From: Naegleria gruberi
Lineage: Eukaryota
Assembly (NCBI GenBank): GCA_000004985.1
Contig: GG738894.1
Length of the DNA: 64,000 nucleotides
Reading direction: 5' to 3' (one strand)
The stretch's first letter is position 1; each line of letters begins with the position of its first letter. Below, in pieces: positions 1 through 55,064 of the stretch. Below the pieces are notes generated by a model, which had not been told where the DNA came from, searched no databases, and was given only the letters and a program-made list of their open reading frames with translations. The position numbers and the translations under genes are program-made.

Positions 1-290
1 CAAACCCAAACCCAAACCCAAACCCAAACCCAAACCCAAACCCAAACCCAAACCCAAACCCAAACCCAAACCCAAACCCAAACCCAAACCCAAACCCAAA
101 CCCAAACCCAAACCCAAACCCAAACCCAAACCCAAACCCAAACCCAAACCCAAACCCAAACCCAAACCCAAACCCAAACCCAAACCCAAACCCAAACCCA
201 AACCCAAACCCAAACCCAAACCCAAACCCAAACCCAAACCCAAACCCAAACCCAAACCCAAACCCAAACCCAAACCCAAACCCAAACCCA
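1..290. repeat. Telomeric repeat array, about 48 tandem copies of CCCAAA (G-strand TTTGGG), at the start of the window. It marks the physical chromosome end.
   Basis: Perfect 6-nt periodicity caaacc from position 1 to 290, ending abruptly at cgactaaggt. C-rich strand reads 5'->3' on the top strand, as expected for a left telomere. Confidence 0.9.
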
Positions 291-12000: not shown

Positions 12001-13039
12001 TTGTTGAAGAACCACTTCCAGAACGTGAGGAAGTATGAAAAGTATAACTATTTGGGAGAAATTGAGTTAGGGATGAGTTAGAATTTGAGGAGGAGATGGA
12101 ATTGGATGCCTTTCTTGTGGTAGGAAAATGGTGAGGAGAAGATGATGGTGTTGTGTTTTGATATGAAGATGAGGATGATCCAACAACATTCGTTGAAGCA
12201 TATTGTCCGTGAATACTTGTTGAATAATTATTATTATTATTATTATTTGACTCGTAGGTGTGCTGTTGTTGTTGTTGTTCTGGATTACTTGTCCAACTAT
12301 TGGCACTATGGCATGATAGGGGTGAAATGCACGGAGATTGATGTTGTGCTTGATGATGGCACTGATGATTATTGTTAGACATGAGGGAAATATTAATACG
12401 AGGTATGGAATGTCTTGCTTGTTGTATATGATGTAAATTCAAAACTTCATATTGAGCATCGTTGGAATCACTAATATCATCAGTAAATTCTTCTTGTTGT
12501 GATTCCTCACCGTTCCTTAAAGCAACATGTTCATGTTGTTGTTGTTGATGACCAGATGAATATTGGTGCCCAAAACAAAATTCATCCAAACCATGTGTAT
12601 TCAAAGAACAAGATTGGGCTTCCTTATCTAGTTGATTGGTTGGAATTGTACCACTACCGCTCGGCATGCTACTTTTTTTGTTAACTGTTTCATCTTCCGA
12701 CATGCTCGCTTGAATAAGATCATTTTGTTGTTCATGTGTGTTGTTGTTGTGTGGAGAGAAGTAAAGCAAAGAAATGGCAGCATCTTGTTGTTGATGAAGA
12801 GTACTTTCATGATGAGGGAGCGGAGAAGCATCTCTTGTGGTAGTATTCGCATCTTGTGGTGCTGATTTGGTGTAAATAATACTAAAAGTGTGTTCATCAT
12901 GTATTGGCGATGATGTTCGACTGGGGTTATCATTGATGTTATCTTTCCGTTCTTCCTTGTTGTTGTGTGTTGTTATTACTGGTTGTTGTGGTGTTGGTTT
13001 AGTATCATGATTGTCCTCACCACCTTCACGTCCAACCAT
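9035..13039 (-). CDS. Hybrid sensor histidine kinase with HisKA, HATPase_c and a C-terminal receiver. It has a polytopic membrane sensor region and a Q/N/H/S-rich N-terminal extension of about 500 aa. Intronless, 1334 aa.
   Basis: Single 1334-aa ORF. H-box IGNLSHEARNPLQGI, N-box NILSNAVKYT, G-boxes DTGCGIS and GYGLSISKSL. Receiver with VVEDNDINRKV...ILMDLLMPIMNG...K. Several hydrophobic helices upstream of the H-box. ATG 13039 in an A-rich context. Confidence 0.85.
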   Translation of the reverse strand: MVGREGGEDNHDTKPTPQQPVITTHNNKEERKDNINDNPSRTSSPIHDEHTFSIIYTKSAPQDANTTTRDASPLPHHESTLHQQQDAAISLLYFSPHNNNTHEQQNDLIQASMSEDETVNKKSSMPSGSGTIPTNQLDKEAQSCSLNTHGLDEFCFGHQYSSGHQQQQHEHVALRNGEESQQEEFTDDISDSNDAQYEVLNLHHIQQARHSIPRINISLMSNNNHQCHHQAQHQSPCISPLSCHSANSWTSNPEQQQQQHTYESNNNNNNNYSTSIHGQYASTNVVGSSSSSYQNTTPSSSPHHFPTTRKASNSISSSNSNSSLTQFLPNSYTFHTSSRSGSGSSTTHHELLSNIDQVIVGNKQKRKDSFILFYEQDQSLTDHSILEPIVIRTSSATNNSSPYESTSGVGSGSHISSLGDSQHPPQQQQQQLKRTSSSSQVDSSDVSSTCESLILTNQEANEASEHMEEENSYPASYYWKTLTGGFMKFFMSSLLNNHEVSTYLQSINTATKTSVEENSTSTVSTPDSSPSSSLPLPQDRRFSLSDDEALIIKFKSRHEQLAKANPKLMIAIAILLIYVSLVFINPVTHGYFVFWLGFVVEMSFNITIDTLCSTVTIKSIPKLELINICRTLIAIMGRIVVQTYYGPNFPFWILQTFPIIISVNIFYYRRIFSLINTATATFGCCLSIYISYIWEYDARGKMDEYILEEMKTKILEIIGLHFILTVGTYMFSRIMEQQSDDNARKQLELLKQQIVNTAKTKFIGNLSHEARNPLQGILCSIQLLKHETVNSEKSQIFNSQSFRETLDDIYYNSNLLLHIFSTSLQLTNLELGKIKLNEMKINLVDILESMIAVFIRNAEEKRISIGSFYNFKSLPKYMFLGDQSRVCQILMNILSNAVKYTDKGHVLLTAEQCTNKDLLRVGLKKDPEYTYVKFICKDTGCGISEAKTKDLFKKPFYKVDQETFNSTIQNSSNPIFEQYYKKSLTNNDIAIEDEERDFKENNGYGLSISKSLLDLMGGRIFIESKVDEYTKVTIIIPLKNLVGDYSGFDDYSSEFFESNQRTIEVLSKELHESIHHCTPEFYLLDKHNTLTGSVIKPYLQFLFPNSNVFESDLEAISKNADKTKYNIVLYNANTVEDFSNIPCLAIPISARGQFNDKRYISSPVRFRELVDVLLHYIKLFPCETNIIPPSSSNLFLTPTNILEKSIEPPQKKALVVEDNDINRKVIIKLLKLIGYENVDSCENGLDSVEKCKQSKYEVILMDLLMPIMNGKDASVQIRQGQNSKTPIIGITANIWETYETLKEFGFDSVLYKPIMLNKLKNEIEKVLQHSLTHP

Positions 13040-21728: not shown

Positions 21729-22472
21729 ATGATTCGACAACTTCAGGTAGCTTTCGGCTTGTTTATTTGCTGTGCATTTCTTCTGCATGTTGCACTGTGC
21801 ATTCCACCTGGACAAGTTGTGAACATTAACAATTGGTATCTTACCCTTCCAATAGGAAGCTATAAGAATCCACAAAACATCTACCAGCCGAATCTAAACA
21901 CATTCGAAAGTGATCCGTATTTTGTTACTGGAAACGATGGAAACAGCATTAGATTTAGAGTTCCAATCCATAAACAAACTGTTACAACATCTGGAAGTAG
22001 TTATCCAAGAACTGAGTTGAGAGAAATGGATTCGTCTAATCCTTCCAAGACGAAAGTTGCTTGGACGAATTCAGATAAAGGAGTTCATACCATGATTATT
22101 GATCAGGCAATCACTCACCTCCCAATCAAGAGAAATCGACTTGCGGCAGGTCAAATCCACGATGACAATGAATTTGTCATTATTATTCAATTGACAGGAA
22201 GTCAACTTTTTGTAAAAACAAATAAGAATGCAAATGCCAAAGTTTTAGATAGTAACTATCAATTAGGCACTAGATTCCTCTTGAAAATCGAAGGATTTGG
22301 TGGAATTACCAATATTTATTATAATGACATGACGAAAGCTGCCTATTCCTATGAATATTCGTATAAGAATGCCTATTTCAAAGCAGGATGTTATTCGCAA
22401 TCAAATTGTGATTATGAACAAGAATTGTGTACAGACACTTCGTTTGTTGAGATTGTTTATGGAAATATTTAA
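21729..22472 (+). CDS. Secreted polysaccharide-lyase family 7 (alginate lyase 2-like) protein
   Basis: Signal peptide, then the three PL7 signature blocks in order: YPRTELREM (R-S/T-E-L-R-E), QIHDD (QIH) and YFKAGCYSQ (YFKAG-V/I-Y-N/S-Q). The 247-aa size fits a single jelly-roll PL7 catalytic module. Confidence 0.6.
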   Translation: MIRQLQVAFGLFICCAFLLHVALCIPPGQVVNINNWYLTLPIGSYKNPQNIYQPNLNTFESDPYFVTGNDGNSIRFRVPIHKQTVTTSGSSYPRTELREMDSSNPSKTKVAWTNSDKGVHTMIIDQAITHLPIKRNRLAAGQIHDDNEFVIIIQLTGSQLFVKTNKNANAKVLDSNYQLGTRFLLKIEGFGGITNIYYNDMTKAAYSYEYSYKNAYFKAGCYSQSNCDYEQELCTDTSFVEIVYGNI

Positions 22473-23352: not shown

Positions 23353-24197
23353 ATGTCGCAACCAATCATTAGATATGCCTTCCTACATGGTTATGCTTCC
23401 TCTCCAAGCACTCGGAAGGGTATTCATCTCAAGAAATTCTTCTCAGAACATGGCATTGAATTGGTGGTTCCAGATTTGAATATTCCTTCGTTTGAAGAAT
23501 TGACAATTTCAGTGTTTTAAATTATTTGGAAACGGAAATATTATTAGATTGTGATAATGATGGCAAAGAGGTACATAATTTTATGATTTTTCTTTTTAAA
23601 TATTTAAATATTTGATCATCAATTTATTAAAATATTTAAATAATGTTTAAATATTCGGAATTGCTAAATTTCATGATGGAATATTATCATCACTATCAAC
23701 AGATTAAATGGAGATTAATTGCAAGTTCTCTGGGAGGCATGATTGGAACGAGATTTGCTGAGCTTCACCCAGAAAGAGTTGATTCTCTCATTCTCCTTGC
23801 CCCAGCTTTTAATACTGAAAGTAGATGGAGAAGTATTTTGGATATTGAAGAGTGGGAAAGAAATGGAACGAGAGAAATTTATAATTACAAACTTGGATCT
23901 GTGAAACATGTGAAATTTGACATTTTTAAAGATTTAGTTAATCATCCAGCATTTCCCATTCCAAATTGTGTATTAAATCAGGAAGGGAAGGGTATTAAAT
24001 TGTTTATTATACATGGAGAACAAGATGATGTTGTGAAAATTGGCACAACTGATCTGTTTTTGGAAAGATTAGTGGAATTGAACTTTGATTTGGAGAGAAA
24101 TGTTAAAGTTTTCAGAGTTCCAGATGGACATGAACTTGTGAGTGAGGAAACTTTGAATTTGATTGAAAAGTTGGTGTTGGATAATTTACTATTGTAA
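23353..24197 (+). CDS. YqiA/UPF0227-like alpha/beta-hydrolase (esterase), with at least 2 exons
   Basis: Exon 1 MSQPIIRYAFLHGYASSPSTRKG...PDLNIPSFEELTIS. Downstream exon IKWRLIASSLGGMIGTRFAELHPERVDSLILLAP...IIHGEQDDVV matches the YqiA layout (HGF-SSP, GSSLGG nucleophile elbow, C-terminal HG). Intron boundaries between about 23515 and 23700 are not resolved unambiguously. Confidence 0.5.
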
Positions 24198-24350
24198 ATA
24201 AGAGTTTTGGAACTTTAGTTTTCAATCATGTTCACAATATAGATTATTATCACAACAACCAAATAATTTACTTTAAAGGTGATAGAGTGGTAAAACATCA
24301 ATTCCCAAATTTTCATTGCCATGTGATGCAAAGTTTCTGTGAAATTCAGT

Positions 24351-25880
24351 TTACAATTCTTCATAAACTTTTTCATTGTTAATTCCAATTTTCTTCATCA
24401 TTTCAATTTCTTCACTTGATTTCCCATATTGAATTAGTCTTAATGAGAAAATAACTGGCGATTCGACAAGCTGAAGGATCATTCCAGTCAATTGAGCACA
24501 AATCAAATAGAGAAATCCAAAATTTTCCCAAACGAAACCTTTCAACAATTTCGAATCATCTTGGAAACTGTCCCTACAAAAATACAACACCAAGGCACAT
24601 GCAAATCCGCTCACCATTTTGCATCTTTCAATTTGATGCAAAATGTTATTGGTTTGCTCGTCACCACTCCAGAGTTGACTAAACATGTAGTTCAGTAAAT
24701 TGTTTTTTGAGGATTTGACACTTTGAAACACTAAATTGGATCTCAATTTCATGGAATTGAAAAGATTGACATTTGGGGTAACACTGTGAACAAGTAGTGA
24801 GCGACTTGTCAAGAGTAAAATTAAACAACAAATGACAAATAGCAGACATCCAATTCCAAATAATAAGGAAAATGCAATTATCAAGATAATGCACAATATT
24901 CCCAGAGTTAGAGATACTGGATCCATATTAGTTTCTCTAAAAGTTTCCGATTTCTCATAATAATAAGTTTTTTCAGTTCGAGTAATCGTTTTGGTTGATC
25001 TCTTGTCAATTACATCCATAACTTTGGAACAGAATGCAATAATTGGAAAACTAATTGATACAGAAATGACACACAAATCTCTGAGAACAATGATCAAATG
25101 ATGAACTGTTGTGAAAATTGAAAAAATGGTCAACTCAATTCCTTTGTACAAGAAATTGTTAAAAAATAAATGAAAGGGGGAGAACCATCTTCTAGAATCA
25201 AACACCTCCATAAATATTAACTCTGAAATTGTGATATGAACAATATTAGTCATGATTTCCATTAATAGAAAGGTCAGTAATATTTCACTGTAAAGGACGA
25301 ACTTGTCTGCTTGTGAATTGAAGATTGAAAATACCAATAAAACCAATATTACTTGCATAAACAAGCCAAATATTACTAATCCAATCGATTGCTTTAAAAT
25401 CTTCCATGAAAATTTGGTGACATCTGCACTGACATTGAAAACTGACGTTTGTTTGAAAGTTCTAATCAAATCTAATACTAATACAACAAATGAATAAATT
25501 GCCAACAAGCTGAATAACCATTTAGATTGATCATCTTCCAACTTTCCATTGAAAAACATGTAGAAAGCAAACAAACAAAGAGAAGCTCCAAAAAAGAAAC
25601 TTCCAATAAAGTGAATTGTCAAGTAAATGATTCTATCTTTGCAATACAGTTCTATAAAGAACAGAGAAGTGAATACTATTCCTATCAGTATTGAAAAACC
25701 AATAACAGTTTGCAAAATGTCAACAAACAACGAAGCCACAATCTTGTCAACAAGTGTCACGAGTGAAAAATCAACAATTTTACAAGCCAGCAAGTAAATA
25801 ACAATAAAAGCCAAAGGACTTGTACAGATCAACCCTTTGAGAATGATTGTTAGTGCATTAGGAAAGTTTCCAGTTGTCAT
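24351..25880 (-). CDS. Polytopic integral membrane protein of about 12 TM helices, unknown family
   Basis: Continuous ORF. The track start is a TTG, and the first ATG (MTTGNFPNAL) at 25880 has an A-rich context. Hydrophobic helices throughout; no recognisable transporter signature. Confidence 0.45.
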   Translation of the reverse strand: MTTGNFPNALTIILKGLICTSPLAFIVIYLLACKIVDFSLVTLVDKIVASLFVDILQTVIGFSILIGIVFTSLFFIELYCKDRIIYLTIHFIGSFFFGASLCLFAFYMFFNGKLEDDQSKWLFSLLAIYSFVVLVLDLIRTFKQTSVFNVSADVTKFSWKILKQSIGLVIFGLFMQVILVLLVFSIFNSQADKFVLYSEILLTFLLMEIMTNIVHITISELIFMEVFDSRRWFSPFHLFFNNFLYKGIELTIFSIFTTVHHLIIVLRDLCVISVSISFPIIAFCSKVMDVIDKRSTKTITRTEKTYYYEKSETFRETNMDPVSLTLGILCIILIIAFSLLFGIGCLLFVICCLILLLTSRSLLVHSVTPNVNLFNSMKLRSNLVFQSVKSSKNNLLNYMFSQLWSGDEQTNNILHQIERCKMVSGFACALVLYFCRDSFQDDSKLLKGFVWENFGFLYLICAQLTGMILQLVESPVIFSLRLIQYGKSSEEIEMMKKIGINNEKVYEEL

Positions 25881-26076
25881 ATTTTTTTTCTTATTGAATT
25901 TCAAAACGTGAAAACGTGATTAAACACAATCAAACTATTCTCCAATATCCACTCTATCTCATTCCAATCTCAAATCCACTTCCTTCCCTTCAAACTTCAT
26001 CTCAAAATCATCTCAATTTCCAAAATAGCCGTTACAAAAAAATCAAAAAAAAACATAAATTTCAACTCAAAAAAAA

Positions 26077-27783
26077 ATGAAAAGAACAAAGAGGGACGAT
26101 CCTGTTGCTCTCGTCATTGATTTGGCATCATCATCATCGGACGAAGAAGAAGAAGAAGAGGAACAGCAAAAGGAACAACAATCAAATAAAATTAGATGCA
26201 CAAATTGCCGTAAAGGGCACTCCAAATGTTCATCTCTGCAGGACGGAATTTTTCCATGCAAAAGATGTAAGGATAAGAAGAAGGAATGTATTCCAGTGAA
26301 TTTTAAAAGAGGTATGAAGGAATCCGACTCTAAAACATCATCAAAATCTTCAAAATCTCCATCATCAAAATCATCAGCGAGTGGAAAATCAAACAACAAG
26401 AAAAATTCATCAAGTCAAACATCATCTTCATCATCAATAGTACAAACAGTTGTTAAAAAGGAAGAGGAACCAAAGAAGAAACGAAAAGTGGTGAAGGATG
26501 AATCCGATGATAGTCCAACAAGTAAGCCACTTCTCACCAATCTGAATGGTCACTCACAACACGATCAAATCGAACCATTCGATGAGACAACTTATAACAA
26601 TTTTGAAAGATATTCGGAGAGATTATTGGAAGTAACATCTGATGATGGAAGATCGAATACTACTTCCTTCATTAACAATAATAATAATAATAACAATAAT
26701 AATAGTATGAATATATTTCTTGCTAGGATGCCTAATGGAGATTTAAACTTGATGAGAGCTCCATCACTTCTTCAATCCAAAATAATGTTGGAGAAAATGG
26801 TTGCAGAACCTGAAACTGCAATGATTTATCAGTATGATGGTCCTCTGTGTTTTGGATTTTCTCCCACTGTTAGACCTCTAGCATCTGCAGAACAGTACAT
26901 GATTAATCAAGTCAGTACTTTATCAAAATCTAGGGATACTCTACTTCATCAACATTTTGTGGAAAACTACAAGAAGAATCACATGCTTGATTGTAAATTT
27001 AGAGTTTATGATGTGGAATCGAAAACTGAGGTCGATTTGGAATGTCACTCTGCTGTTGTACTTTCCTTTAGTCCTTATCTGAGATCTCTCGTCAAACCAA
27101 CAGCGACTCAACCAGTATTTAAATTTGGAAACAAATTTCACTATGTAAATAAGAATGCACTGTTAAATATTATCGAATTTCTCTATCTAGGAAAGAAAAT
27201 TGCTGGGAGTATGGATGAACTGTTTGATATTGTACTTTGCTCAATTTTGATGGACATTGAAGAAGTCAAGTATGCAGCATGTCTCACTATTATTACTAAA
27301 TTATTCAAGGAAGGTCAAATTGCACCACTCAAACCTAAAAGAGCTGCCAAAATAGTTGGAGTTTTACATTTTGCAGATGAACACTTTTTGCAATTACTCA
27401 TTCAAGCAATTTTCAATAGGATCGTGAGAGAAGATGTTGGAGAAGAATTGAAACAACATGGATTGAGTAAACATTTATTAGAAAAACTGAGAAGTTGGCA
27501 AGAATATCGAGATGGAGTTGTGTGGAATGAAGAAGGACTCACTAAGGATGTCTCTATGAAACTTGACAATAATACCCTCTCAACCAAAACATGGCACAAA
27601 TTGACCAAAACTGCCTACCCAAACAGACAATACTGTCAATCGAAAGAAGATCTCAAAGAAGTCATCATTTCCGAGCAAATAGAACACGACCTAAAGAAAG
27701 CTAAAGAAGCAACAAACTCTCAATCATTAAGCAGCCCTAAAAAATCCATTCACAAACGTGTTGTTTCTAATCAACTTTTGTAA
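26077..27783 (+). CDS. Putative transcription factor with an N-terminal Zn2Cys6 binuclear cluster and a central BTB/POZ-like domain. Intronless, 568 aa.
   Basis: CTNCRKGHSKCSSLQDGIFPCKRCKDKKKEC fits C-x2-C-x6-C-x(5-12)-C-x2-C-x6-C. Poly-Ser/Glu and poly-Asn linkers. Residues about 300-400 (DLECHSAVVLSFSPYLRSL...ALLNIIEFLYLGK...LFDIVLCSILMDIEEV) align with the BTB core. Confidence 0.65.
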   Translation: MKRTKRDDPVALVIDLASSSSDEEEEEEEQQKEQQSNKIRCTNCRKGHSKCSSLQDGIFPCKRCKDKKKECIPVNFKRGMKESDSKTSSKSSKSPSSKSSASGKSNNKKNSSSQTSSSSSIVQTVVKKEEEPKKKRKVVKDESDDSPTSKPLLTNLNGHSQHDQIEPFDETTYNNFERYSERLLEVTSDDGRSNTTSFINNNNNNNNNNSMNIFLARMPNGDLNLMRAPSLLQSKIMLEKMVAEPETAMIYQYDGPLCFGFSPTVRPLASAEQYMINQVSTLSKSRDTLLHQHFVENYKKNHMLDCKFRVYDVESKTEVDLECHSAVVLSFSPYLRSLVKPTATQPVFKFGNKFHYVNKNALLNIIEFLYLGKKIAGSMDELFDIVLCSILMDIEEVKYAACLTIITKLFKEGQIAPLKPKRAAKIVGVLHFADEHFLQLLIQAIFNRIVREDVGEELKQHGLSKHLLEKLRSWQEYRDGVVWNEEGLTKDVSMKLDNNTLSTKTWHKLTKTAYPNRQYCQSKEDLKEVIISEQIEHDLKKAKEATNSQSLSSPKKSIHKRVVSNQLL

Positions 27784-28015
27784 ATATTAATGTATTTACA
27801 ACCATGACGAGCTATAGTATTATTCAACTCATTATCTTACGACATTTCCGATCTCTATTTGTTCTATTCATCCTTGATGATGCACCAAGAATCTCTCTTC
27901 TTCGCACATTATTATCAATTTGCTGTACGACAAGTCCTCGTACATTGCATTCATCAACATACATGATGAGAAAGAGGACAAATATTAATAATCAATTAGA
28001 AAAAATTCCTTCCAC

Positions 28016-30078
28016 TTGCACAATATAGAGATGAAGTATCAAAGAAACAAGTTACTGTCATTATGTTTATTGGCCATTGTTGGATTAATGTTCATGATAG
28101 GAGGATTGAATGGACAGAAGGATTGTCCCTCCTATCGTTCCAAACACTACTTTCCAAGGATGAGATATGAAAATGATGGCACCACCACTCGATCGGAATA
28201 TTTGACAATGAGGGATGGTGTAAAGATTGCCTGTGATTTATATTTGCCATACAGGGCTGTTAATGAAAATCACAGATTGCCAACATTGTTGCACGTGACC
28301 AGATATTACAGATCTTACAAGGTGAATTGGCCATTTAATTATCTTGTTGGAGATAAGATTAGTATTAATGGAATTCCATTCCCAAAATTCTTGGCTCGTG
28401 GATATGCCATTGTTAGTTGCGATACTAGGTATGTTTTACATATAATATAACTTATTAACATAGTATCAAAAGAGGTTCTGGTGTTAGTTTCGGAAAGAGA
28501 TTATACGATTTCCACAGAGATGAAGTTCAAGATTTCAAGGAAGTTCTCGATTGGATTACCAAACAAAAGTTCAGTAATGGAAAGATTGTTTCTACTGGTA
28601 TTTCGTATGATGGCATGGTCACTGATTTCTTGACCTCTTTGAATCATCCAGCTTTGGTTGCTGTTTCTTCAATTTCAGGACCATTCGATATCTATAGGGA
28701 TACAATCTATCCTGGTGGTATTTATCAAAAGTCATTTATTGATTATTATTTGAAATTTACACAAACTGTCGAGTCTGGAGAGATGATTACTAGATCTGAT
28801 TTGTGTGCTGGTTGTGCTCCAGAAACACTCAAGGAAAAGATTATGGACAAGTTGGCTAAACTTCTCCTCGGTGGTGTTAACCCTGTGGATTCCAATGATT
28901 TGGAAACTATGAGAAAAGCCATTGAATCACACAAGGACTCTACTGACATGTTGGATGTTGTTCATCATCTTGAAAAAGGTATCAATAAGATTGTTACCAC
29001 AGACAAGTTCACCTATGAAATGGAAAGAGATGGACCAATGAGAGTCATTGCTGATAATAAGAAGAGAATTCCAATATTAGTATTTGGTGGCTATTATGAA
29101 AGTATGGTTTTGAATAGTGTTGTAAAAAGATTCTACTCTTTATATCACAAGGACAGCAGATTGATTATGGGACCTTACAATCACGGTCTCAAGGTAATCA
29201 ACTCACCTTACTCAGAAACCACCACACCATGTTTTGATGCCTTTGAGGAAATTATGAGATTCTTTGATCATCATTTAGGATTGGAGGAAGATCTTGGACT
29301 CGAAAATGAAAAACAAGTTCACTACTATTCTATTGGATCTGAAAAGTGGTTCTCAGTTGACAGTTGGCCACCAAAAGCTGAAGAGAAGGTTTTACATTTG
29401 AGTAATGCTGGAGCCCTCGTATCCGAGAAGACTGAATTGAATCATGTTTTAAAGCTTAATATGGAGGAAGAAACACTCATTGACTGTAAGTGGAATATGT
29501 TAACTTCACTCTTCCAAAAAGCTACCAAATACTCTGCAACCTTGTCCTCTCCTCAATTCTCCAATGGAAAGCTCAATTATATCTCACAACCATTGAGTGA
29601 AGATTTGGAAATTACTGGTTATCCTCACCTCACTGTTGAATTATCTGCCAACAATCGTGATGGATTGATTTTTGCCTATTTGCAAGAAGTTGACACCAAG
29701 GGAACTGTTAACTTTGTCATGGATACTCAATTGAGACTCGTCCATCGTAAATTGAATTTACACAGAAATACCAGTGGACTCATTGATGTAGTTCCACATC
29801 ATACCTTCTACGTGGAGGATCGTCAATATTTAGAACCAAACCAAAAGACCACCATTCAATTATACTTCCCAGCTGTTTCCTACACTGTCAAGAAGGGTCA
29901 CTCTCTCAAGCTTTCCCTCTTCTCATTCGATAAGATTAACTTTAAGATTTTTGAGAATGAATCTGATCTTTCCAGTGAGCTCTTCCTTCACAGTGCCTCT
30001 CTCCATCTTCCAATCGTTCACTCTCGTCCAGAATCTTCTTCTTTACATTCTGATAATTCTAATAAGGATGAGCTCTAA
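28016..30078 (+). CDS. CocE/NonD-family (peptidase S15, Xaa-Pro dipeptidyl-peptidase-like) hydrolase, two exons
   Basis: Exon 1 28016-28428, a 44-nt GTATGT...AG intron at 28429-28472, exon 2 to 30078. Splice restores ...CDTRGSGVSFG. GISYDGM nucleophile motif (GxSxG), N-terminal signal/TM anchor, long C-terminal beta-sandwich region as in CocE/NonD. Confidence 0.7.
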
Positions 30079-30177
30079 AATAAAACAATTTGTCATCATT
30101 CCCTTAGTATTAAATAGTGGATGCATTACAGTTCATCTCTCTCTTCTGAGGGATTCTCACAGACAGTTCAAAAAAAA

Positions 30178-32046
30178 ATGCAGGAACAAACAACAGCAAA
30201 AGATCATGTTCTATCTGTTCTTGAAGAACAACAGCAAGATTATGCTACTACTGTTAAATCTTCATCATTTACTGCTGTTAGTCATGATGAAGAAGATTTT
30301 CACTTGTTTGAAAGAAAAAAGAAGAAACGAAAAGAAAATTCTGATTTATTAATTCTTCTATCGGAAGAAAGTGATGAATTTGATGGTGGATGGTTGAGAT
30401 TGAAGGATGAATGGATGATTGTGTTGGAATTTCTTCCGATTGGAAGCATTCTCATGTTGGCCATGACTAGGAAAGCCAATTATGGATGGATTTGTGGATA
30501 TGTGAGGAGGATGGCAAGATTATTGATTGAGAAGGGATTGGGAGGAAGGTTTTCAATTACTAAAATGTTGAGAATGAAGAAAAAGATGCATGTTGATTCG
30601 AATAATTTTAAACAAGTTTATGAAGTGTTTAAAGAGATTAGTTTGAGAAATGGATCATTAACTGAATTGAGTCATGGTTTTTTATTTAATGGTATTCATT
30701 TTGAACAGTTATACCATTTATTGGATATTAGAAAGAGTTTGGGACATTTGGATGAATTGACTGTCGAAACTGTTTGTCTTCCAAAGAAGGAAATTCTATC
30801 ATTTGAAAGAATTTTCCTTAAGAAACAAATTAAGGACATTCCTATAGGTTACGAATTGAAAAATTTGGAATTAATTATTGAATATTCAGAGTATGGAGTT
30901 CAAACTCTTTACAAAATTCTTGCAAAATGCAGAAATTTAGAAAGTTGTCAAATTCAAGTTGACGAAAACTCTAAAAAAACCACACATCTCTATTCTGATG
31001 ATACATTTGATGAAAATTACATTCATGTACCTCTAATGAATAATCTTAAACATTTAGATGTGGATTCATTTGAAGAAGACCCACAATTCATGTTTGACTT
31101 GTTGAAATTTTGTCCAAACTTGGAAACATTGCATTATGCATGTGAAGCAACACCAAAAGATGAGTTTTTGAAATTTGTATCTGAAATGTGTCCAAAACTG
31201 AGAAGAATGACCATTCAGTCTGAGTATAGTAGAATTACTGATGATGCACTTGTTGATTTTTTAACACGACAAAAAGAAATGGAATACTTAGATATAAGAC
31301 CAACTCCAATGATTAGTGGAAAGGTATTTAAACACTTGGATCAATTTGAAAAGCTTAAATATTTGAGAATTCGTAGGTGTCTTCATTATGCAAGTATTGC
31401 TCCTCAATTGGTCGATGATTTTCAATTAGGATCAAGACCATTGCCCAATCTACATTATTTGGATATTGGAAATAATTATAGATTCTCTACTCATGTGAAA
31501 TTTGATCGATTTGAAAATAGTTTAAAGCTAGTAGCTCCAAATTTGAAAGACTTTTATGAAATGGACAAAACGTCAATTCTCGAGCTCTATGCGACTACTT
31601 TAGAGACAACCATTGGTACTTTGACTAATCTATCTGAATTGCATTTATGCACAAATTTAAAAAGGGTAGTTCTCCAAATTCCTGAAAATAGCAAATTTGA
31701 TGGCATTCCTGTTTGTCCACATGTGATTGAGTTGAAATTTCATTTTAATTACTATTTGGATAGTACAGTCTTGTTGCAACTTGCCAGAATATTTCCATCT
31801 GTGGAGGTGCTTGATATTTCGTTTTGTGGAGATTCATTTGTGGAATTATTGAAAAATTCATCATTTTGGCCGAAACTAGTTTATTTGAAGGTTTCACCAA
31901 CAAGAAAGGAGAAATTAATCAACATTGACAATGCTAGACCAAGCATCTACATTGAAGGATTTCAATTTCCAATCATTCCTAACACTTTTAATTATTTATG
32001 GCTAGAAAGAGATTTAAATGTTAGAAATGAATATTTCTTGACATGA
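30178..32046 (+). CDS. Leucine-rich-repeat protein (F-box/LRR-like, cysteine-containing LRRs)
   Basis: ATG in an A9 context. Repeated L..L.L..C..I(T/S)D blocks (CPNLETLHYAC, CPKLRRMTIQSEYSRITDDAL, etc.). Confidence 0.45.
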   Translation: MQEQTTAKDHVLSVLEEQQQDYATTVKSSSFTAVSHDEEDFHLFERKKKKRKENSDLLILLSEESDEFDGGWLRLKDEWMIVLEFLPIGSILMLAMTRKANYGWICGYVRRMARLLIEKGLGGRFSITKMLRMKKKMHVDSNNFKQVYEVFKEISLRNGSLTELSHGFLFNGIHFEQLYHLLDIRKSLGHLDELTVETVCLPKKEILSFERIFLKKQIKDIPIGYELKNLELIIEYSEYGVQTLYKILAKCRNLESCQIQVDENSKKTTHLYSDDTFDENYIHVPLMNNLKHLDVDSFEEDPQFMFDLLKFCPNLETLHYACEATPKDEFLKFVSEMCPKLRRMTIQSEYSRITDDALVDFLTRQKEMEYLDIRPTPMISGKVFKHLDQFEKLKYLRIRRCLHYASIAPQLVDDFQLGSRPLPNLHYLDIGNNYRFSTHVKFDRFENSLKLVAPNLKDFYEMDKTSILELYATTLETTIGTLTNLSELHLCTNLKRVVLQIPENSKFDGIPVCPHVIELKFHFNYYLDSTVLLQLARIFPSVEVLDISFCGDSFVELLKNSSFWPKLVYLKVSPTRKEKLINIDNARPSIYIEGFQFPIIPNTFNYLWLERDLNVRNEYFLT

Positions 32047-32328
32047 TTTTGTAACCAGAATGTTATCCAACTAGCCTCCTACCAATTTCCTAAAGTTTCC
32101 GAGCTTTGTTATTTTTCATCCCACAAGTTGTTTCTAACTCAACTGATGGTGTGCAATCAACACTTTTCAACAAATTCATCAAGAAGAAAAATCATGTCTT
32201 ATTCAAAAAACAGGCATGGAAAGGAATTTACCAATCCATTCTGCATCTCTTATTGGAATGTTGTAATCACAACACAATGTTTTAAAACCGAATTAAATTT
32301 GATGACGGAACGTGCCAAGAACACACAT

Positions 32329-32916
32329 TCAATTATCCAATTGATACATCTCTCTATTATTGAATGGAATCAAAGCCAACACAAGAGCCTGTTCGTAATA
32401 GGCAGCTCTCGTAACAATCTCTCTCGTCAACAACCCTACAGCACCTGTTTGTTGCTTTGAATTGTGCTTTTTAAAGACAATATCATTAGCTTCTCCCAAT
32501 TCCTTGCCCTCCTTGATGAGAAGAATAATCTCTGGTGGTAAATAAAAGCTCGATGTTTGTGCCGATGATACATAACCAGTCTTGTTTTCAACAACAACAG
32601 TGAAAGCAGAGGAAGCAACTCGAGTCTCACTCTCAAATTCTATTCCTCCCTCGATACCAACAAAATAGATACCATCAGTGTGGGTGGCTACATCAGTAGA
32701 TGATGTTTCTTGCTCGAGAAAGGCTTTCTGTACATTGAGTGCTCTTGTTGTGGCTCCGTGAAGAGTTTCCTTGTTGGATTTTGGTTGGGCATCAACACCA
32801 GATGGAACAGAGAGAGAACGAAATTCTATGGACGTGTTGTCTGGATAGACTTTGATAAAGGCTTCTTTGGTGCAGCCAACTTTAACTGGATTGGTCGAGC
32901 CAACAATGACGAGCAT
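32329..32916 (-). CDS. YjjX-family (DUF84) non-canonical purine NTP phosphatase (inosine/xanthosine triphosphatase)
   Basis: MLVIVGSTNPVKVGCTKEAF..SGVDAQP...ALIPF parallels E. coli YjjX MHQVVCATTNPAKIQAI..SGVPEQP...ALSPF. 195 aa, intronless. Confidence 0.6.
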   Translation of the reverse strand: MLVIVGSTNPVKVGCTKEAFIKVYPDNTSIEFRSLSVPSGVDAQPKSNKETLHGATTRALNVQKAFLEQETSSTDVATHTDGIYFVGIEGGIEFESETRVASSAFTVVVENKTGYVSSAQTSSFYLPPEIILLIKEGKELGEANDIVFKKHNSKQQTGAVGLLTREIVTRAAYYEQALVLALIPFNNREMYQLDN

Positions 32917-33156
32917 GATGTTGTTGGATTTTTTTTAAAGATTTTAATTAAAAGTTTTTTTCAAAATTGTTCTAACGGTTTCATAAATTTTCACTATTTC
33001 CAAATCTGTTATTAAGGGATCGTAGACTGATTAACTTTCTAACAAAAAATTAATTTCAGCAAGTTTTGGAAGTATATATCTTTCTCATGAAGCCCACTAC
33101 ATGTGTTAGTTTAAATAAGAACACTATGAAAATACAAAAATACAAACTGAAAAAAA

Positions 33157-35920
33157 ATGGAACGAGAACACCGCCCTCAATACAACACTTTGAGCAGCAC
33201 CTCGAATATTACTGAGAATATGTTTGCAAATGATGACTCTTTTGGTGATGACGATTTAAATATGATGGGAGTTGATCGTCAATATTCGGGTTCTAGTAAT
33301 GATAATAGTAATAATGATGAGGAAGAGGCTCGGCAAATTTCATCCTTCCTGAATACAACAGCAGGTTTATCACAAGTAAGGGATAATTCAATTCATTCGG
33401 GGACGGTTGATCCATCATTTGATGATAATTTATCTGATTATGGAGATGAATACTTGGGAGAGGATGTTATGATGCAGACAATGAGACCTAACAGAAATAA
33501 TAAGGAAAACAATGAGGATGAGGATGAAACACTCCTTCAAACAAATTCATATGAATATTCACAGGATAAGGTGGAACAGTTCATCAAAGGAGAAGACTTT
33601 GCTGGTCTATCTAAGGAGATTGAAAAGCTTCTCGAGTCAGATAATGCCACACCTCGTCTTGGAAATCAAACAACAACACCATTGGATAATATTGGAGAAG
33701 AATATGCATCTCTTTCTAACAATAGTTCTCTTCTTCAACAAGAAGGAGAAGGAACAAATGATATGAGCACCACCAATAAGGAATCTTCATCTTTCATCAC
33801 TGATGAAGAAGCAGAAGAGAGATTGAAATCACTTCTAATGAAATTGGACAAGTCAAAAATCTCGGAAACCAACACTAACAGAACGGAAAGCCCTAAACAA
33901 CAATCATCTCAATTCTTTCTTCCTCAACAGGAAAATATCATAACAACCAGAATGCTTCCAGATGCAAATGAATTGTCTATTGAAACAAGATCATCAACCT
34001 CCTCACCTGCAACAACACGAGAAAGTACTCCAAGTAAAAAGATTGAGGAAATTATAGAAAAGTATGAATATTTGGATAGTATTTCTCACAATAGCGATAC
34101 TGTGAAACCTGTTCATTCATCGAGAGAGGATCATCTCTTTGACAAGTATGATGCAAATTATAACAACTTGGATCAAGGGGAAATATCATTGAAAAAGGGT
34201 GAATCTAAAAGACCAGAACTCTTAAGTGCACCGTCTACTCCTTCACTCTCCTCTATAATTAATAATAACATGAATCACAATTTAGAGTTCAGAGAGCAAA
34301 ACATTCTGCCAGAAAAAGAAGTGGAAATTTCAAACATCTCAACTATTTATGAGGAGACCAACGTTAATAATATAATAGAGATGAAACTTGAACCAATTTC
34401 TCAATTGTTAAGGTCAAGTGGATATGCTGGCTTTTTAGGGGAAACTGATATTGTAAAGAGTAAGTTCACAACAATCGTGCAACCAAACAATATTTTAATA
34501 ATATCATTTCAATACGATAGGAATCAAAGAAACATTCCAAATGATGTTAGAAGATATGGAAAGAAAAACTAAAACCATTGAATTACAATCTAAGAATCAA
34601 CAAGAATTTACCAAAACCATGTTGAAATTAAAGCAACAGGTGGAAAAGGCCAATGAAGTTTGTAATCAATACAAGGTTCAACTGGAAAAGAAGGACAATG
34701 AATTGAAAGCATTCAAGGATAACAATCAAGTTAGTAGCAATAAGAATGAGAAGGAAATTTCTCAACTAAAAAAGATGGTTGAAGGAATGACCTCCAAAGT
34801 TTCGCAATACGAGTCAAGCATTACAGTCAAAGATGAGGAGATTAATGATTTGAAAAAGAAACTTTACCAAATTGTATCAAAAGAAGAAACTAAGCGAATT
34901 AATGCGATGAATATATTCAGTCAAGCCAATAAGAGAAAGCCTACAACTAAAACAGACTTGAAAGAAATTGATATCATTTCAATGTATGAAGAGCAGAGAA
35001 CACAACTGAAGAGAGAAGTTGCATTCCTTAAAACCGAGATACAGAGACTCAATGAAAGTGAAGTGCAAAATCAAAATGGCTCAGAAATTGTTCATAAGAA
35101 TGAGGAGCAAATCAAAAAATTAATCGCTCAAACGAGGATGGAACGAGAACGATATTCCAAGTTGGAGGCCGAATTTAATGCCGTTCAACAAAAACTAAGT
35201 GCACTATCGAATCAGAACCAAAGAGTGATAGCAAATCTTGAAGAGGAGAATTCCAGACTTTTGAATGAGCTAAAAGGAAGACCTCACGCTGAAGACTTTG
35301 AGAATCTCAGACAAAGGAGCGAACTAATTAGAAAGGAGCTTATTATGAAGAACAAGGAACTGACAGAATTGAAAAAAACTACAGACAAGTCTGCAGTCCT
35401 TTCTATACCCGGAGGGAAATGGTCTAACACTAAAGAGGAAGCCTCCTCAAAAAAGAAGAAAACCACTGACAATGTCTCTCTCCAAACCTCTTTCGAGAAA
35501 GAAGATCAGAAAGATCTCTCTATCTACAAGGATATTATTCAAGAAGTTTGTAAAATTCTAAACATCTCAGACGTGAGTGGACTTGTGGCCTCCCTCCAAA
35601 AGATGGTTTCAATTGTGAAGGCTGTACCAAAAATGGAAAAGTTTATTTGCGAGATTTGTGATATTTGTAAAAAGGGAACTGTGGATCTGGGCCACGAAAT
35701 TGATCTAAAACCAAAGGTGATTGCTCCATTGTTGGGATATTGGATTGAAAAATTGAGGGAAAATCAGGAAATGGAAAAGGAAATTGCTCAACTTTTGAAT
35801 AATAGACAAGGTAAAGAACCAATAGATTATTCCGATCCTGATTACAAGGAATTGAAGAGACAAATATTGACATCAGTTGCAGAGTTGGTGAGTTACGAGT
35901 CCAATCAACAGACTCAATAA
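33157..35920 (+). CDS. Acidic low-complexity protein with a C-terminal coiled-coil, two exons
   Basis: ORFs 33157-34572 and 34541-35920 are joined by a 61-nt GTAAGT...AG intron (34460-34520) that restores frame (..DIVK|RIKETFQMMLEDMERKT..). N-terminal D/E/N/S-rich region; C-terminal long heptad-rich K/E/L region. Confidence 0.55.
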
Positions 35921-54600: not shown

Positions 54601-55064
54601 AGGCAATTGAATCTATCGAGTGGCCACTTATTGCCTTGATCGGTTCTAGTTTTGGTATTGGTACTGCAATTACTCAATCAGGTATGGGTGAGGCTCTTGC
54701 AGAATTATTAAGATTGATGAATGTTCCAGTTATTCTACTTCCAGCATTTGTCGTTTTCATTACTCTAGTAGTGACTGCTGTCATTACCAATAATGCTGCT
54801 GTGGCTGTTTGTTTCCCATTGGCTATGGCTATTGCTAGATCGTACGGTTTAAATCCTCGATGCTTTGCCATGTGTGTCTGTATTGCTGCCTCCTCTGTAT
54901 TTGCCACTCCAATTGGCTACCAATGCAATATGATGATTATGGGACCTGGTGGTTATTCCTTTATCGATTATGTGAAAATTGGTTTACCATTGACAATTAT
55001 TTACTTTTTCGCCGTTAGTACATTTGTTCCACTCATTTGGGGATTGGAAGTTCCAAACTTTTAA
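51661..55064 (+). CDS. SLC13/DASS-superfamily permease of the bacterial YfbS type, with two internal TrkA-C domains. It is preceded by a eukaryote-style N-terminal signal anchor and glycosylated ectodomain. Three exons.
   Basis: Exon 1 51661-52902 (ectodomain of about 270 aa rich in N-x-S/T, then TM helices). A 66-nt GTAAGT..ATAG intron at 52903-52968. Exon 2 52969-54387 (..LPII|KDWARENNIAASKFLMAMCYITTAAGLMTLIGTSTNIV; TrkA-C-like GELYSDFEKRYGVVILAVRHNKG...GDTLLLIGK). A putative 50-nt intron at 54388-54437 (GTAATG..AAG) rejoins frame to ..IPFTKKSVNLWWWEHLIF.. C-terminal permease repeat to 55064. Confidence 0.6.

What the first reader, a model, noticed from the sequence alone, without database searches (positions are those of the whole stretch)
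23353..32916. Run of bacterial-type enzymes (YqiA esterase, CocE/NonD S15 hydrolase, YjjX NTPase) interleaved with host regulators
Within 10 kb, three genes have their closest recognisable families in bacteria: UPF0227/YqiA, CocE/NonD with GxSYxG, and DUF84/YjjX. Two of them carry spliceosomal introns, the esterase and CocE, so they are domesticated. Together with the PL7 lyase, the YfbS permease and the bPH_2 protein elsewhere in the window, this chromosome end looks enriched for prokaryote-derived functions.
Basis: inference. Interest (0 to 1): 0.5.

Follow-up and report, generated by a model that had tools for sequence, protein, structure and literature searches.

The report
Three unrelated old Naegleria hydrolase genes
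Three enzyme genes that look bacterial sit near one chromosome end of the amoeba Naegleria gruberi. They are long-resident, unrelated genes that are scattered in sister species, and only one is a good candidate for an ancient gene transfer from prokaryotes, so the run is ordinary.

Summary
The window is a telomere-bearing scaffold end of Naegleria gruberi NEG-M. The three genes exist and belong to the named Pfam families: UPF0227, Peptidase_S15+PepX_C and NTPase_I-T. All three are already public predicted proteins.

- **Not a unit.** In N. lovaniensis the orthologues lie on three different contigs, each roughly 95-230 kb from a contig end. The NTPase keeps one internal housekeeping neighbourhood in N. 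lovaniensis and N. fowleri. Nothing else in the window is syntenic.
- **NTPase (YjjX type).** This is the one solid ancient transfer candidate. Naegleria plus Willaertia form a clade (bootstrap 96), and the next relatives are prokaryotes at 45-52% identity.
- **CocE/NonD hydrolase.** The subfamily is abundant in bacteria (28-33% identity, at least 598 genomes), but in a quick tree it groups with Incisomonas and Eimeria. It carries a signal peptide and KDEL.
- **"YqiA" esterase.** It is not YqiA proper. Its subfamily is widespread but patchy in eukaryotes. As assembled, the gene has a 1-nt frameshift plus a 132-nt intron, and an intact paralogue exists elsewhere.
- **Chance.** With 2.7% bacterial-like genes, about six such runs are expected genome-wide.

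Subtelomeric enrichment cannot be tested from one window.

The parts
23353..24197 (+). UPF0227-family alpha/beta serine hydrolase gene (the 'YqiA esterase'). The corrected product is 237 aa and keeps the Ser-Asp-His triad.
   Evidence: Pfam UPF0227 2.6e-12. Orthologues in N. lovaniensis, N. fowleri and an environmental relative at 44-47% BLASTP identity, 53-55% over trimmed alignment columns. S, D and H are invariant in alignment A1. Model rebuilt.
23353..23570 (+). Esterase exon 1. It can only be read through if one base is added in the T run.
   Evidence: The frame 0 ORF stops at 23518-23520. The +2 frame continues as LNYLETEILLDCDNDGKE, matching the paralogue P0421 LNYLKEEIFIVRDGEKN and the N. 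lovaniensis/N. fowleri sequences.
23515..23518 (+). T4 homopolymer where one T appears to be missing. This is either a sequencing error or a real frameshift (very recent pseudogene).
   Evidence: Inserting one T gives an uninterrupted 237-codon CDS. No second assembly was found to check it.
23571..23702 (+). Esterase intron, 132 nt, GTACAT...CAACAG. The RefSeq ORF start (ATG 23643) lies inside it.
   Evidence: This is the only AG that gives an in-frame junction. The model A segment scores 30/24/21/17 against homologues, versus 15/9/7/17 for the ORF-head alternative. The N. lovaniensis orthologue is intronless.
23703..24197 (+). Esterase exon 2, with the nucleophile elbow IASSLGG and the D and H of the triad.
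   Evidence: tblastn with P0247, P0248 and P0249; alignment A1.
28031..30078 (+). CocE/NonD (S15) family serine hydrolase gene, 667 aa, with an N-terminal signal-like hydrophobic segment and a C-terminal KDEL.
   Evidence: Spliced product identical to XP_002672857. Peptidase_S15 1.1e-37 and PepX_C 2e-22. TIGR00976 236.8 bits against a cutoff of 66.3. Profile match to cocaine esterase 1e-58. KDEL/KDEF is conserved in the four Naegleria-clade sequences and absent from the two bacterial homologues read.
28429..28472 (+). CocE intron, 44 nt, GTATGT...AAAAG.
   Evidence: The flanking coding sequence is collinear, without length change, in the environmental strain contig L001. The N. lovaniensis orthologue has no intron here; its two introns are near aa 230 and aa 375.
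32329..32916 (-). YjjX-type NTPase gene (NTPase_I-T/DUF84), 195 aa, single exon. Predicted inosine/xanthosine triphosphatase.
   Evidence: Pfam 5.7e-46. PDB VC0702 3e-29 and YjjX 1.3e-15. AF2 pLDDT 94.4. Foldseek TM 0.8-0.9 to 1U5W/1ZWY. All 38 invariant family columns are retained.
24351..25904 (-). Interleaved gene: 517-aa hydrophobic (apparently multi-pass membrane) protein with no Pfam family.
26077..27783 (+). Interleaved gene: 568-aa protein with a BTB-like and a Zn2Cys6-like segment (XP_002672856).
   Evidence: BTB 18.6 bits and Zn_clus 16.6 bits, both below the Pfam cutoffs. UniRef name 'BTB domain-containing protein'.
30121..32046 (+). Interleaved gene: 641-aa ORF with a weak F-box-associated LRR match. 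The public gene model differs.
   Evidence: LRR_At5g56370 6.2e-5, 23.2 bits, below cutoff. The exact ORF product is not in the collection.
21729..22472 (+).
   Evidence: Alginate_lyase2 1.6e-33; exact match. Its origin was not analysed.
1..288 (.). Telomeric repeat (CCCAAA)n marking the chromosome end, followed by a 2,190-bp assembly gap at 1095-3284.

Best explanation
**Overall.** The 'run' is a chance or secondary neighbourhood of three functionally unrelated single-gene hydrolases. All three have been in the Naegleria lineage for a long time, and each has a different history.

**1. NTPase (32329-32916, minus strand).** It is a YjjX-type house-cleaning NTPase. By homology it should hydrolyse ITP/XTP and keep non-canonical purines out of nucleic acids. 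It was most likely acquired once from a prokaryote by an ancestor of Naegleria plus Willaertia. Since then it has been an ordinary, intronless, single-copy nuclear gene.

**2. CocE/NonD hydrolase (28031-30078).** It is an S15-family serine hydrolase with a Ser-Glu/Asp-His triad. It has been fitted with a signal peptide and a KDEL tail, so it probably works in the ER lumen or early secretory pathway on an unknown ester or peptide. Its subfamily is mainly bacterial, but a few other eukaryotes have it. Its route into Naegleria is therefore unresolved: direct from bacteria, via another eukaryote, or ancient. It duplicated in N. gruberi and gained introns independently in different species.

**3. 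Esterase (23353-24197).** It is a small UPF0227 alpha/beta serine hydrolase. Its subfamily is patchily but widely spread among eukaryotes. The subtelomeric copy is interrupted by a 1-nt frameshift in the assembly, and an intact paralogue exists elsewhere.

**Shown versus inferred.**
- Shown: family membership, gene structures, age, dispersal in sister species.
- Inferred: enzymatic activities, ER location, direction of transfer.
For: **Identity and families:**

**Age**
- NTPase orthologues in N. fowleri and N. lovaniensis (60%) and Willaertia (56%). The clade has bootstrap 96 and shares an insertion of up to about 12 aa.
- Esterase orthologues in N. lovaniensis and N. fowleri.
- CocE orthologue in N. 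lovaniensis plus a paralogue in N. gruberi.

**Dispersal**
- In N. lovaniensis the three orthologues are on PYSW02000026 (377-394 kb of 614 kb), PYSW02000040 (285-302 kb of 396 kb) and PYSW02000011 (579-598 kb of 738 kb).
- The N. fowleri NTPase sits at 360-376 kb of 613 kb, in the same dynein / Mut7-C / MAPEG / PARP / PAC4 / MRP-L20 neighbourhood as in N. lovaniensis.
- tblastx finds nothing shared with the window except each gene itself.

**NTPase origin**
- All other hits in the top 120 are at 43-52% identity. None carries a EukProt or eukaryotic label.
- Checked contexts are prokaryotic.
- The distance to the nearest prokaryote (0.69) is about the same as to Willaertia (0.65).

**CocE:** at least 598 bacterial genomes from many phyla at 28-33% identity over the full length; KDEL is found only in the Naegleria clade; intron positions are not shared between species.

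**Esterase:** the eukaryotic distribution and the paralogue; the frameshift-plus-intron model.

**Composition:** GC3 is 0.26-0.38 against 0.25-0.35 for neighbouring genes.

**Chance:** about 6 such runs are expected genome-wide at the published 2.7% background.
Against: - The trees are quick neighbour-joining trees on limited, partly unlabelled samples. Deep nodes are unresolved (bootstrap 10-25) or open to long-branch attraction (the 92 for Naegleria+Incisomonas+Eimeria).
- Only the best 120 of 1,720 NTPase hits were visible, so weaker eukaryotic relatives were not placed. From memory, the animal PRRC1 family is one such relative.
- If PL7 and the permease are also counted as bacterial-type, 5 of about 30 genes has nominal P about 0.001 against 2.7%. 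Some real local enrichment is therefore not excluded.
- N. gruberi is distant from N. fowleri and N. lovaniensis, so loss of synteny alone is weak evidence.
- No expression or activity data were available.
Confidence: 0.7

Rival explanations
1. Subtelomeric HGT island. The chromosome end preferentially captures prokaryotic DNA, and these genes were acquired there and then domesticated by intron gain.
For: - Three to five bacterial-family genes lie within 21-55 kb of a telomere.
- Nominal P is 0.001-0.05 for 3-5 of 30 genes at the 2.7% background.
- The CocE introns are lineage-specific, as expected for an originally intronless gene.
- The phenomenon is known elsewhere. From memory: bdelloid rotifers. 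Subtelomeric duplication of HGT-derived genes in Cyanidiophyceae: PMC9812998.
Against: - All three genes predate the divergence of the Naegleria species compared, and the NTPase predates the Naegleria/Willaertia split.
- The orthologues are internal and unlinked in N. lovaniensis, and the NTPase also in N. fowleri.
- There is no compositional signal.
- The esterase's nearest relatives include many eukaryotes.
- The genes are separated by unrelated Naegleria genes on both strands.
Confidence: 0.08
2. Subtelomeric accumulation of duplicated or relocated accessory genes. The chromosome end collects extra copies of dispensable, patchily distributed enzyme genes whatever their ultimate origin, and some of them decay.
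For: - Both the esterase and the CocE gene have a paralogue on another N. gruberi scaffold (P0421; P0127).
- The subtelomeric esterase copy is frameshifted as assembled.
- In the NJ tree the other CocE copy pairs with the N. lovaniensis gene.
- Subtelomeric gene duplication is documented in red algae (PMC9812998).
Against: - The NTPase is single-copy among the hits.
- The window esterase is closer to the N. lovaniensis gene (55%) than its paralogue is (46%).
- The locations of the paralogues relative to chromosome ends are unknown (one search failed).
- The other genes in the window are ordinary.
Confidence: 0.15
3. Purely vertical descent. All three families were in the last eukaryotic common ancestor and were lost in most lineages, so no transfer is needed.
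For: - The esterase subfamily is present in at least six distant eukaryotic lineages.
- The CocE clade groups with a stramenopile and an apicomplexan (bootstrap 92).
- From memory, DUF84 also occurs in the animal PRRC1 proteins.
Against: - The vahlkampfiid NTPase is 45-52% identical to prokaryotic enzymes. No other eukaryote appears among the 120 best hits, even though EukProt is in the database.
- The CocE eukaryotic hits score far below the bacterial ones (E 1e-45 against 1e-83).
- The scenario requires very many independent losses.
Confidence: 0.1
4. Bacterial contamination or misassembly of the scaffold end.
For: None beyond the bacterial-looking family names.
Against: - Spliceosomal introns.
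- Host-like GC and GC3.
- Eukaryotic targeting signals.
- Flanking eukaryotic genes.
- The same gene order in an independent environmental contig at 97-99% identity.
- Orthologues in three other sequenced vahlkampfiid genomes.
Confidence: 0.01

Closest known systems
E. coli YjjX / Vibrio cholerae VC0702 (UPF0244, NTPase_I-T; ITPase/XTPase)
   Same: Single-domain protein of about 175-195 aa. Sequence match 3e-29 (VC0702) and 1.3e-15 (YjjX). Predicted fold TM 0.8-0.9. All invariant family residues are kept.
   Different: Encoded in a eukaryotic nucleus. It carries a vahlkampfiid-specific loop insertion of up to about 12 aa (residues about 66-79, the lowest-pLDDT block). It scores below NCBIfam equivalog cutoffs (148 against 175 bits). 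Activity is untested.
Rhodococcus cocaine esterase CocE and the CocE/NonD (TIGR00976, peptidase S15) family
   Same: Alpha/beta hydrolase domain plus PepX_C jelly-roll domain. GxSYxG nucleophile and GPxxH histidine. Profile match 1e-58.
   Different: Only about 30% identical to any bacterial member. The acid residue aligned with the CocE 'GWYD' Asp is Glu in both N. gruberi copies. A signal peptide and KDEL/KDEF tail are added. It has one spliceosomal intron. The substrate is unknown.
E. coli esterase YqiA / YcfP (UPF0227)
   Same: Small cap-less alpha/beta serine hydrolase with an N-terminal HGF/Y..S motif and a GSSLGG elbow. Pfam UPF0227 above threshold.
   Different: Not an equivalog (23 bits against 252). 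It belongs to a separate subfamily shared with Creolimax, Galdieria, Cyanophora, Lapot, Protostelium, a rotifer and sciarid flies as well as bacteria. This copy is frameshifted as assembled.
Subtelomeric foreign-gene regions of bdelloid rotifers (from memory: Gladyshev, Meselson and Arkhipova 2008) and subtelomeric duplication of HGT-derived genes in Cyanidiophyceae (PMC9812998)
   Same: Bacterial-family enzyme genes, some with introns, lying within tens of kb of a telomere.
   Different: Here the genes are old. They are present in sister species or genera, where they are internal and unlinked. They are few and are interleaved with ordinary genes. No genome-wide enrichment has been shown.

Membership tests
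NTPase_I-T / DUF84 (YjjX-type ITPase/XTPase) | Pfam PF01931 match above the gathering score over the full domain | tested here: met
   156.8 bits against cutoff 25; residues 6-185 match profile positions 1-161 of 162.
NTPase_I-T / DUF84 (YjjX-type ITPase/XTPase) | YjjX fold | tested here: met
   AF2 pLDDT 94.4, pTM 0.90. Foldseek to 1U5W/1ZWY: E 1e-16 to 5e-19, TM 0.8-0.9.
NTPase_I-T / DUF84 (YjjX-type ITPase/XTPase) | Conserved family residues (SxNPxK, QP, GIEGG, SK...G) | tested here: met
   38 invariant columns in a 30-sequence alignment, all kept by the window protein.
NTPase_I-T / DUF84 (YjjX-type ITPase/XTPase) | NCBIfam equivalog score (NF003459 / TIGR00258), i.e. same function assumed | tested here: not met
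   148.3 against 175 bits; 93.4 against 117.1 bits.
NTPase_I-T / DUF84 (YjjX-type ITPase/XTPase) | ITP/XTP hydrolysis | not testable with these tools
   Needs an enzyme assay.
CocE/NonD hydrolase (peptidase S15) | Peptidase_S15 + PepX_C architecture; TIGR00976 above cutoff | tested here: met
   130.6 and 80.6 bits; TIGR00976 236.8 against 66.3.
CocE/NonD hydrolase (peptidase S15) | Catalytic Ser in GxSYxG and His in GPxxH | tested here: met
   GISYDG and GPYNHG. G175, Y178, G180 and H370 are invariant and S177 is near-invariant (at least 90%) in A4. Aligned to the CocE segments GVSYLG and GPWSH.
CocE/NonD hydrolase (peptidase S15) | Catalytic Asp (the CocE 'GWYD' position) | tested here: inconclusive
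   N. gruberi has GGYYE (Glu), N. lovaniensis has GGYYD. Glu may substitute, but this is untested.
YqiA esterase / UPF0227 | Pfam PF05728 above the gathering score | tested here: met
   47.5 bits against 21, though only over the N-terminal part.
YqiA esterase / UPF0227 | NCBIfam esterase YqiA equivalog (NF008291) | tested here: not met
   23.3 bits against cutoff 252; paralogue 36.6 bits.
YqiA esterase / UPF0227 | Ser-Asp-His triad | tested here: met
   S, D and H are invariant across 12 homologues including the window gene.
YqiA esterase / UPF0227 | Intact reading frame | tested here: not met
   One nucleotide is missing at the T run 23515-23518 relative to all homologues.
Horizontally acquired gene island at a chromosome end | Closest relatives of each gene outside the lineage are prokaryotic | tested here: inconclusive
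   Met for the NTPase. Ambiguous for CocE. Not met for the esterase.
Horizontally acquired gene island at a chromosome end | Genes linked in relatives or donor (co-acquisition), or absent from sister taxa (recent acquisition) | tested here: not met
   Present in sister species, on three contigs, internal, with no shared synteny.
Horizontally acquired gene island at a chromosome end | Compositional or codon anomaly | tested here: not met
   GC 0.34-0.42 and GC3 0.26-0.38, within or just above the neighbours' range.
Horizontally acquired gene island at a chromosome end | Genome-wide excess of such genes near telomeres | not testable with these tools
   Only this window of N. gruberi is available.

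The most novel reading that the evidence does not exclude
N. gruberi chromosome ends may act as sinks for accessory enzyme genes of foreign or patchy origin. Genes that are internal in N. fowleri and N. lovaniensis (the YjjX-type NTPase) or duplicated (the CocE and UPF0227 hydrolases) would be relocated there and then turn over, with the frameshifted esterase as one example. That would make this window one instance of a subtelomeric accessory compartment in a discoban protist.
Probability: 0.12. Interest if true: 0.5.

Novelty: new member of a known kind. Interest (0 to 1): 0.17.

Why it matters
It matters little as it stands. Bacterial-like genes are already reported for Naegleria (2.7% of N. 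gruberi genes, PMC9928731), and all three genes are public predicted proteins.

Three modest points come out of the work:
1. The vahlkampfiid YjjX-type NTPase is a clean candidate for a prokaryote-to-eukaryote transfer, datable to before the Naegleria/Willaertia split.
2. The CocE-like hydrolase shows how such an enzyme is fitted to the eukaryotic secretory pathway (signal peptide plus KDEL) and gains introns independently in sister species.
3. The public gene model for the esterase is wrong, and the gene is either mis-sequenced or freshly broken.

The work also gives a caution. Pfam families that look bacterial can hide a broad eukaryotic subfamily, and that subfamily only appeared in an exhaustive profile search.

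Tried and rejected
**Searches that failed or found nothing**
- An AlphaFold-database fold search, meant to get organism names, was not installed.
- Exact-product look-ups for the annotated esterase and for its paralogue were not on record. No second N. gruberi copy of the T run and no paralogue locus could be read.
- A JGI metagenome scan for the T4/T5 site gave 0 hits.
- A viral contig scan for NTPase relatives found no relative among 42 pattern matches, so a viral source has no support.
- A literature search for the gene and protein identifiers gave 0 papers. The 2010 N. gruberi genome paper is not held.

**Esterase splice models rejected**
- Model B, joining exon 1 to '...ELLNFMMEYY', needs a non-AG acceptor.
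- Model D, joining GT 23512 to AG 23702, deletes a helix of the alpha/beta hydrolase fold.
- A 36-nt mini-intron gives the wrong frame.
- TAA read as a sense codon runs into TGA.

**Other hypotheses rejected**
- A tandem duplication explaining the two helix-like segments: only a 32-nt AT-rich repeat lies inside the intron.
- Contamination.
- A segmental duplication carrying the whole block: the two paralogues are on different scaffolds (395 kb and 468 kb).

Full report
**What the window is.** Four ORF products of the window are identical to GenBank/RefSeq proteins of Naegleria gruberi NEG-M, on a 499,907-bp scaffold. They are XP_002672853 (PL7), XP_002672856 (BTB), XP_002672857 (CocE-like) and XP_002672928 (YjjX-like). 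The window starts with 288 bp of (CCCAAA)n, followed by AT-rich sequence and a 2,190-bp gap. It is therefore a real chromosome end, and the finding lies 23-33 kb from the telomere. GC content is uniform at 31-38% outside the telomere and gap region.

**Checking the observation.** Pfam confirms the three family assignments:
- UPF0227: 47.5 bits against a cutoff of 21.
- Peptidase_S15 (130.6 bits) plus PepX_C (80.6 bits).
- NTPase_I-T: 156.8 bits.

NCBIfam refines this. The CocE-like protein is a clear TIGR00976 member (236.8 against 66.3 bits). The NTPase falls just short of the equivalog cutoffs (148 against 175). The esterase is nowhere near the YqiA equivalog (23 against 252), so 'YqiA esterase' should read 'UPF0227-family hydrolase'.

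The interleaved genes are a 517-aa hydrophobic (apparently multi-pass membrane) protein with no Pfam family, a BTB/Zn-cluster-like protein and an LRR protein. The last two give only sub-threshold Pfam hits. Elsewhere in the window, PL7 and a CitMHS/TrkA_C permease are confirmed. bPH_2 is not; the only trace is a bPH_3 hit at E=0.2.

**Gene structures.**
- **CocE.** Exons 28031-28428 and 28473-30078 are separated by a 44-nt GT-AG intron. The spliced 667-aa product equals the RefSeq protein exactly.
- **NTPase.** A single 195-codon exon.
- **Esterase.** The exon 1 frame stops at 23518-23520. The public model is only the 184-aa ORF from ATG 23643.
  - The Naegleria homologues show that the true sequence continues in the +2 frame as ...SVF-LNYLETEILLDCDNDGKE. 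These are the orthologues of N. lovaniensis and N. fowleri, an environmental relative, and especially the N. gruberi paralogue P0421 (...LNYLKEEIFIVRDGEKNIKW).
  - That reading needs one extra T in the T4 run at 23515-23518. A 132-nt GT-AG intron (23571-23702) then joins it in frame to IKWRLIASSLGG... With one T inserted the CDS is an uninterrupted 237 codons.
  - The competing segment, the head of the annotated ORF, scores worse against three of four homologues and ties with the fourth. It also has no usable AG acceptor.
However, the gene as assembled is frameshifted, and the public model starts inside the intron.
  - I could not decide between a sequencing error and a very recent pseudogene. 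No second assembly of this spot was found.

**Are the enzymes likely to be active?**
- **NTPase.** It keeps all 38 invariant columns of a 30-sequence family alignment. It is predicted with pLDDT 94. The model superposes on E. coli YjjX and V. cholerae VC0702 at TM 0.8-0.9. By homology it is an ITP/XTP-hydrolysing house-cleaning enzyme.
- **CocE-like protein.** It has the GISYDG serine and the GPYNH histidine. At the position of the cocaine-esterase GWYD aspartate, both N. gruberi copies have Glu and N. lovaniensis has Asp.
  - It begins with a hydrophobic signal-like segment and ends in KDEL.
  - The paralogue and an environmental relative also end in KDEL, and N. lovaniensis ends in KDEF. The two bacterial homologues whose sequences were read have no such tail.
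  - An ER or early-secretory location is therefore a reasonable inference.
- **Esterase.** It keeps its Ser-Asp-His triad.

**Age and location of the genes: the key test of the 'island' idea.** All three genes are shared with other vahlkampfiids:
- NTPase: N. fowleri and N. lovaniensis (60%) and Willaertia magna (56%).
- Esterase: N. lovaniensis and N. fowleri (44%).
- CocE: N. lovaniensis (52%) plus a 64% paralogue in N. gruberi.

In N. lovaniensis the orthologues lie on three different contigs, all well inside:
- NTPase: 377-394 kb of 614 kb.
- Esterase: 285-302 kb of 396 kb.
- CocE: 579-598 kb of 738 kb.

In N. fowleri the NTPase lies at 360-376 kb of 613 kb. It sits in the same housekeeping neighbourhood as in N. 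lovaniensis: dynein heavy chain, Mut7-C, MAPEG, PARP, PAC4, MRP-L20, DSPc, CENP-C. tblastx of these loci against the window finds nothing in common but the gene itself.

An environmental contig from an N. gruberi-like strain (97-99% identical) is collinear with 26711-34311. The BTB / CocE / LRR / NTPase order is therefore stable within the species complex but specific to it.

Two further points argue against recent acquisition:
- GC3 of the three genes (0.26-0.38) is like that of their neighbours (0.25-0.35).
- Intron positions in CocE are not shared between species. N. gruberi has one at aa 133; N. lovaniensis has two, near aa 230 and aa 375. The esterase intron is absent from N. lovaniensis.

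**Where each gene came from.**

*NTPase.*
- After the five vahlkampfiid sequences, the remaining 115 listed hits (43-52% identity) carry no eukaryotic label, although EukProt is part of the database. The named ones are a Nanoarchaeota and a Gottesmanbacteria MAG.
- Two contexts I checked are prokaryotic. One shows tight operon-like packing. The other has a TonB-dependent receptor, polyphosphate kinase and GluRS.
- In an NJ tree the vahlkampfiid clade has bootstrap 96 but no resolved sister. The distance to the nearest prokaryote (0.69) is about the same as to Willaertia (0.65).
- The clade shares an insertion of up to about 12 aa.
- One ancient prokaryote-to-vahlkampfiid transfer is the simplest reading.

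*CocE.*
- A scan of species-representative prokaryotic genomes found at least 598 relatives. The best were 28-33% identical over residues about 50-650, in Bacteroidota, Planctomycetota, Nitrospirota, Myxococcota, Acidobacteriota, Chloroflexota, Mycobacterium and others.
- Eukaryotic hits score much lower (Incisomonas 3e-45; Ectocarpus, Tribonema and Eimeria only partial).
- Even so, the NJ tree joins Naegleria with Incisomonas and Eimeria at bootstrap 92. That could be a real eukaryotic clade or long-branch attraction.
- Origin: bacterial-type subfamily, route unresolved.

*Esterase.*
- The word-indexed search suggested a tie between a bacterium and some insect/rotifer-like sequences.
- The exhaustive profile search found 1,563 representatives.
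- Name look-ups showed that the best ones include Creolimax, Galdieria phlegrea, Cyanophora, Lapot gusevi, Protostelium, a bdelloid rotifer and Bradysia, as well as a second N. gruberi gene.
- In the tree the Naegleria clade (bootstrap 76) sits among low-GC eukaryotic sequences, apart from the high-GC bacterial cluster. The deep nodes are unsupported.
Monophyly is not shown.

[quoted passage not shown] At that rate:
- At least 3 hits in 8 consecutive genes has P about 0.001 per run, and about 0.008 somewhere in a 30-gene window.
- About 6 such runs are expected across 15.7k genes.
- If only the NTPase and CocE qualify, P is about 0.10.
- Counting PL7 and the permease as well (5 of about 30) gives a nominal P of about 0.001.

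Window-level enrichment therefore remains open and needs the whole genome.

**Comparison with what is known.**
- This locus shares only its position near a telomere and the bacterial-looking families. It fails the tests of recency, linkage and composition.
- A milder variant fits some facts. Both hydrolases have paralogues elsewhere, and the subtelomeric esterase copy looks broken, so the chromosome end may collect duplicated or relocated accessory genes. I give that about 0.12-0.15.

**Verdict.**
- The genes are real and correctly classified at the family level.
- One of them is a good ancient HGT candidate that I did not find described in the literature searched.
- The 'run' is not a functional or evolutionary unit, and the chromosome-end enrichment is unproven.
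- Interest is low. The finding is a new member of a known kind: bacterial-type genes long domesticated in a phagotrophic protist.

Noticed in passing
window 1-288 and 1095-3284: The chromosome end carries a (CCCAAA)n repeat, i.e. TTTGGG on the G-rich strand, followed by AT-rich unique sequence and a 2,190-bp run of N.
   Followed up: partly
window 23643-24197: The public protein for the esterase (P0246, 184 aa) starts at an ATG inside the 132-nt intron. Its first ~20 residues are probably translated intron, and the true N-terminal 72 residues (exon 1) are missing from the model.
   Followed up: yes
window 28031-30078; L011 8001-10402: The CocE-like genes of N. gruberi and N. lovaniensis share no intron positions (aa 133 versus aa ~230 and ~375). 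This means lineage-specific intron gain or loss after the species split.
   Followed up: partly
window 30064-30078 (C-terminus of the CocE-like protein): KDEL, a canonical ER-retention tail, ends this bacterial-type hydrolase. KDEL or KDEF is conserved in the Naegleria paralogue and orthologues and absent from the two bacterial homologues read.
   Followed up: partly
window 32329-32916, protein residues ~66-79: The Naegleria/Willaertia NTPases share a loop insertion of up to about 12 residues that no prokaryotic homologue in the alignment has. It is the only low-confidence block of the AF2 model.
   Followed up: partly
window 30206-30520 versus L001 3520-3583: The environmental N. gruberi-like strain differs from NEG-M by an indel of roughly 250 bp at the 5' part of the LRR gene. 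The 641-aa ORF product is not the public gene model.
   Followed up: no
window 51661-55061: A CitMHS/TrkA_C (YfbS-like) permease is split over three ORFs, so it presumably has introns. Its evolutionary origin was not examined.
   Followed up: no
window 59972-62492 (minus strand): Two adjacent minus-strand ORFs with protein-kinase matches, probably exons of one gene. The ORF at 59972-61936 also has a right-handed beta-helix/NosD-like region (Beta_helix 1.2e-29).
   Followed up: no
window 44594-46053 and 47508-47978: A cation-efflux (CDF) transporter is split over two overlapping ORFs. A 156-aa ORF matches only the middle of serine carboxypeptidase S10. Either could be multi-exon or degraded.
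   Followed up: no
window 9035-13039 (minus strand): A hybrid histidine kinase (HisKA + HATPase_c + receiver) lies 9-13 kb from the telomere.
   Followed up: no
P0294, P0308 (esterase homologues from metagenomes): Some relatives of the esterase are fused to long C-terminal extensions (599 and 884 aa). One bacterial relative (P0271) is fused to NUDIX, and another sits next to a NUDIX gene (L006).
   Followed up: no
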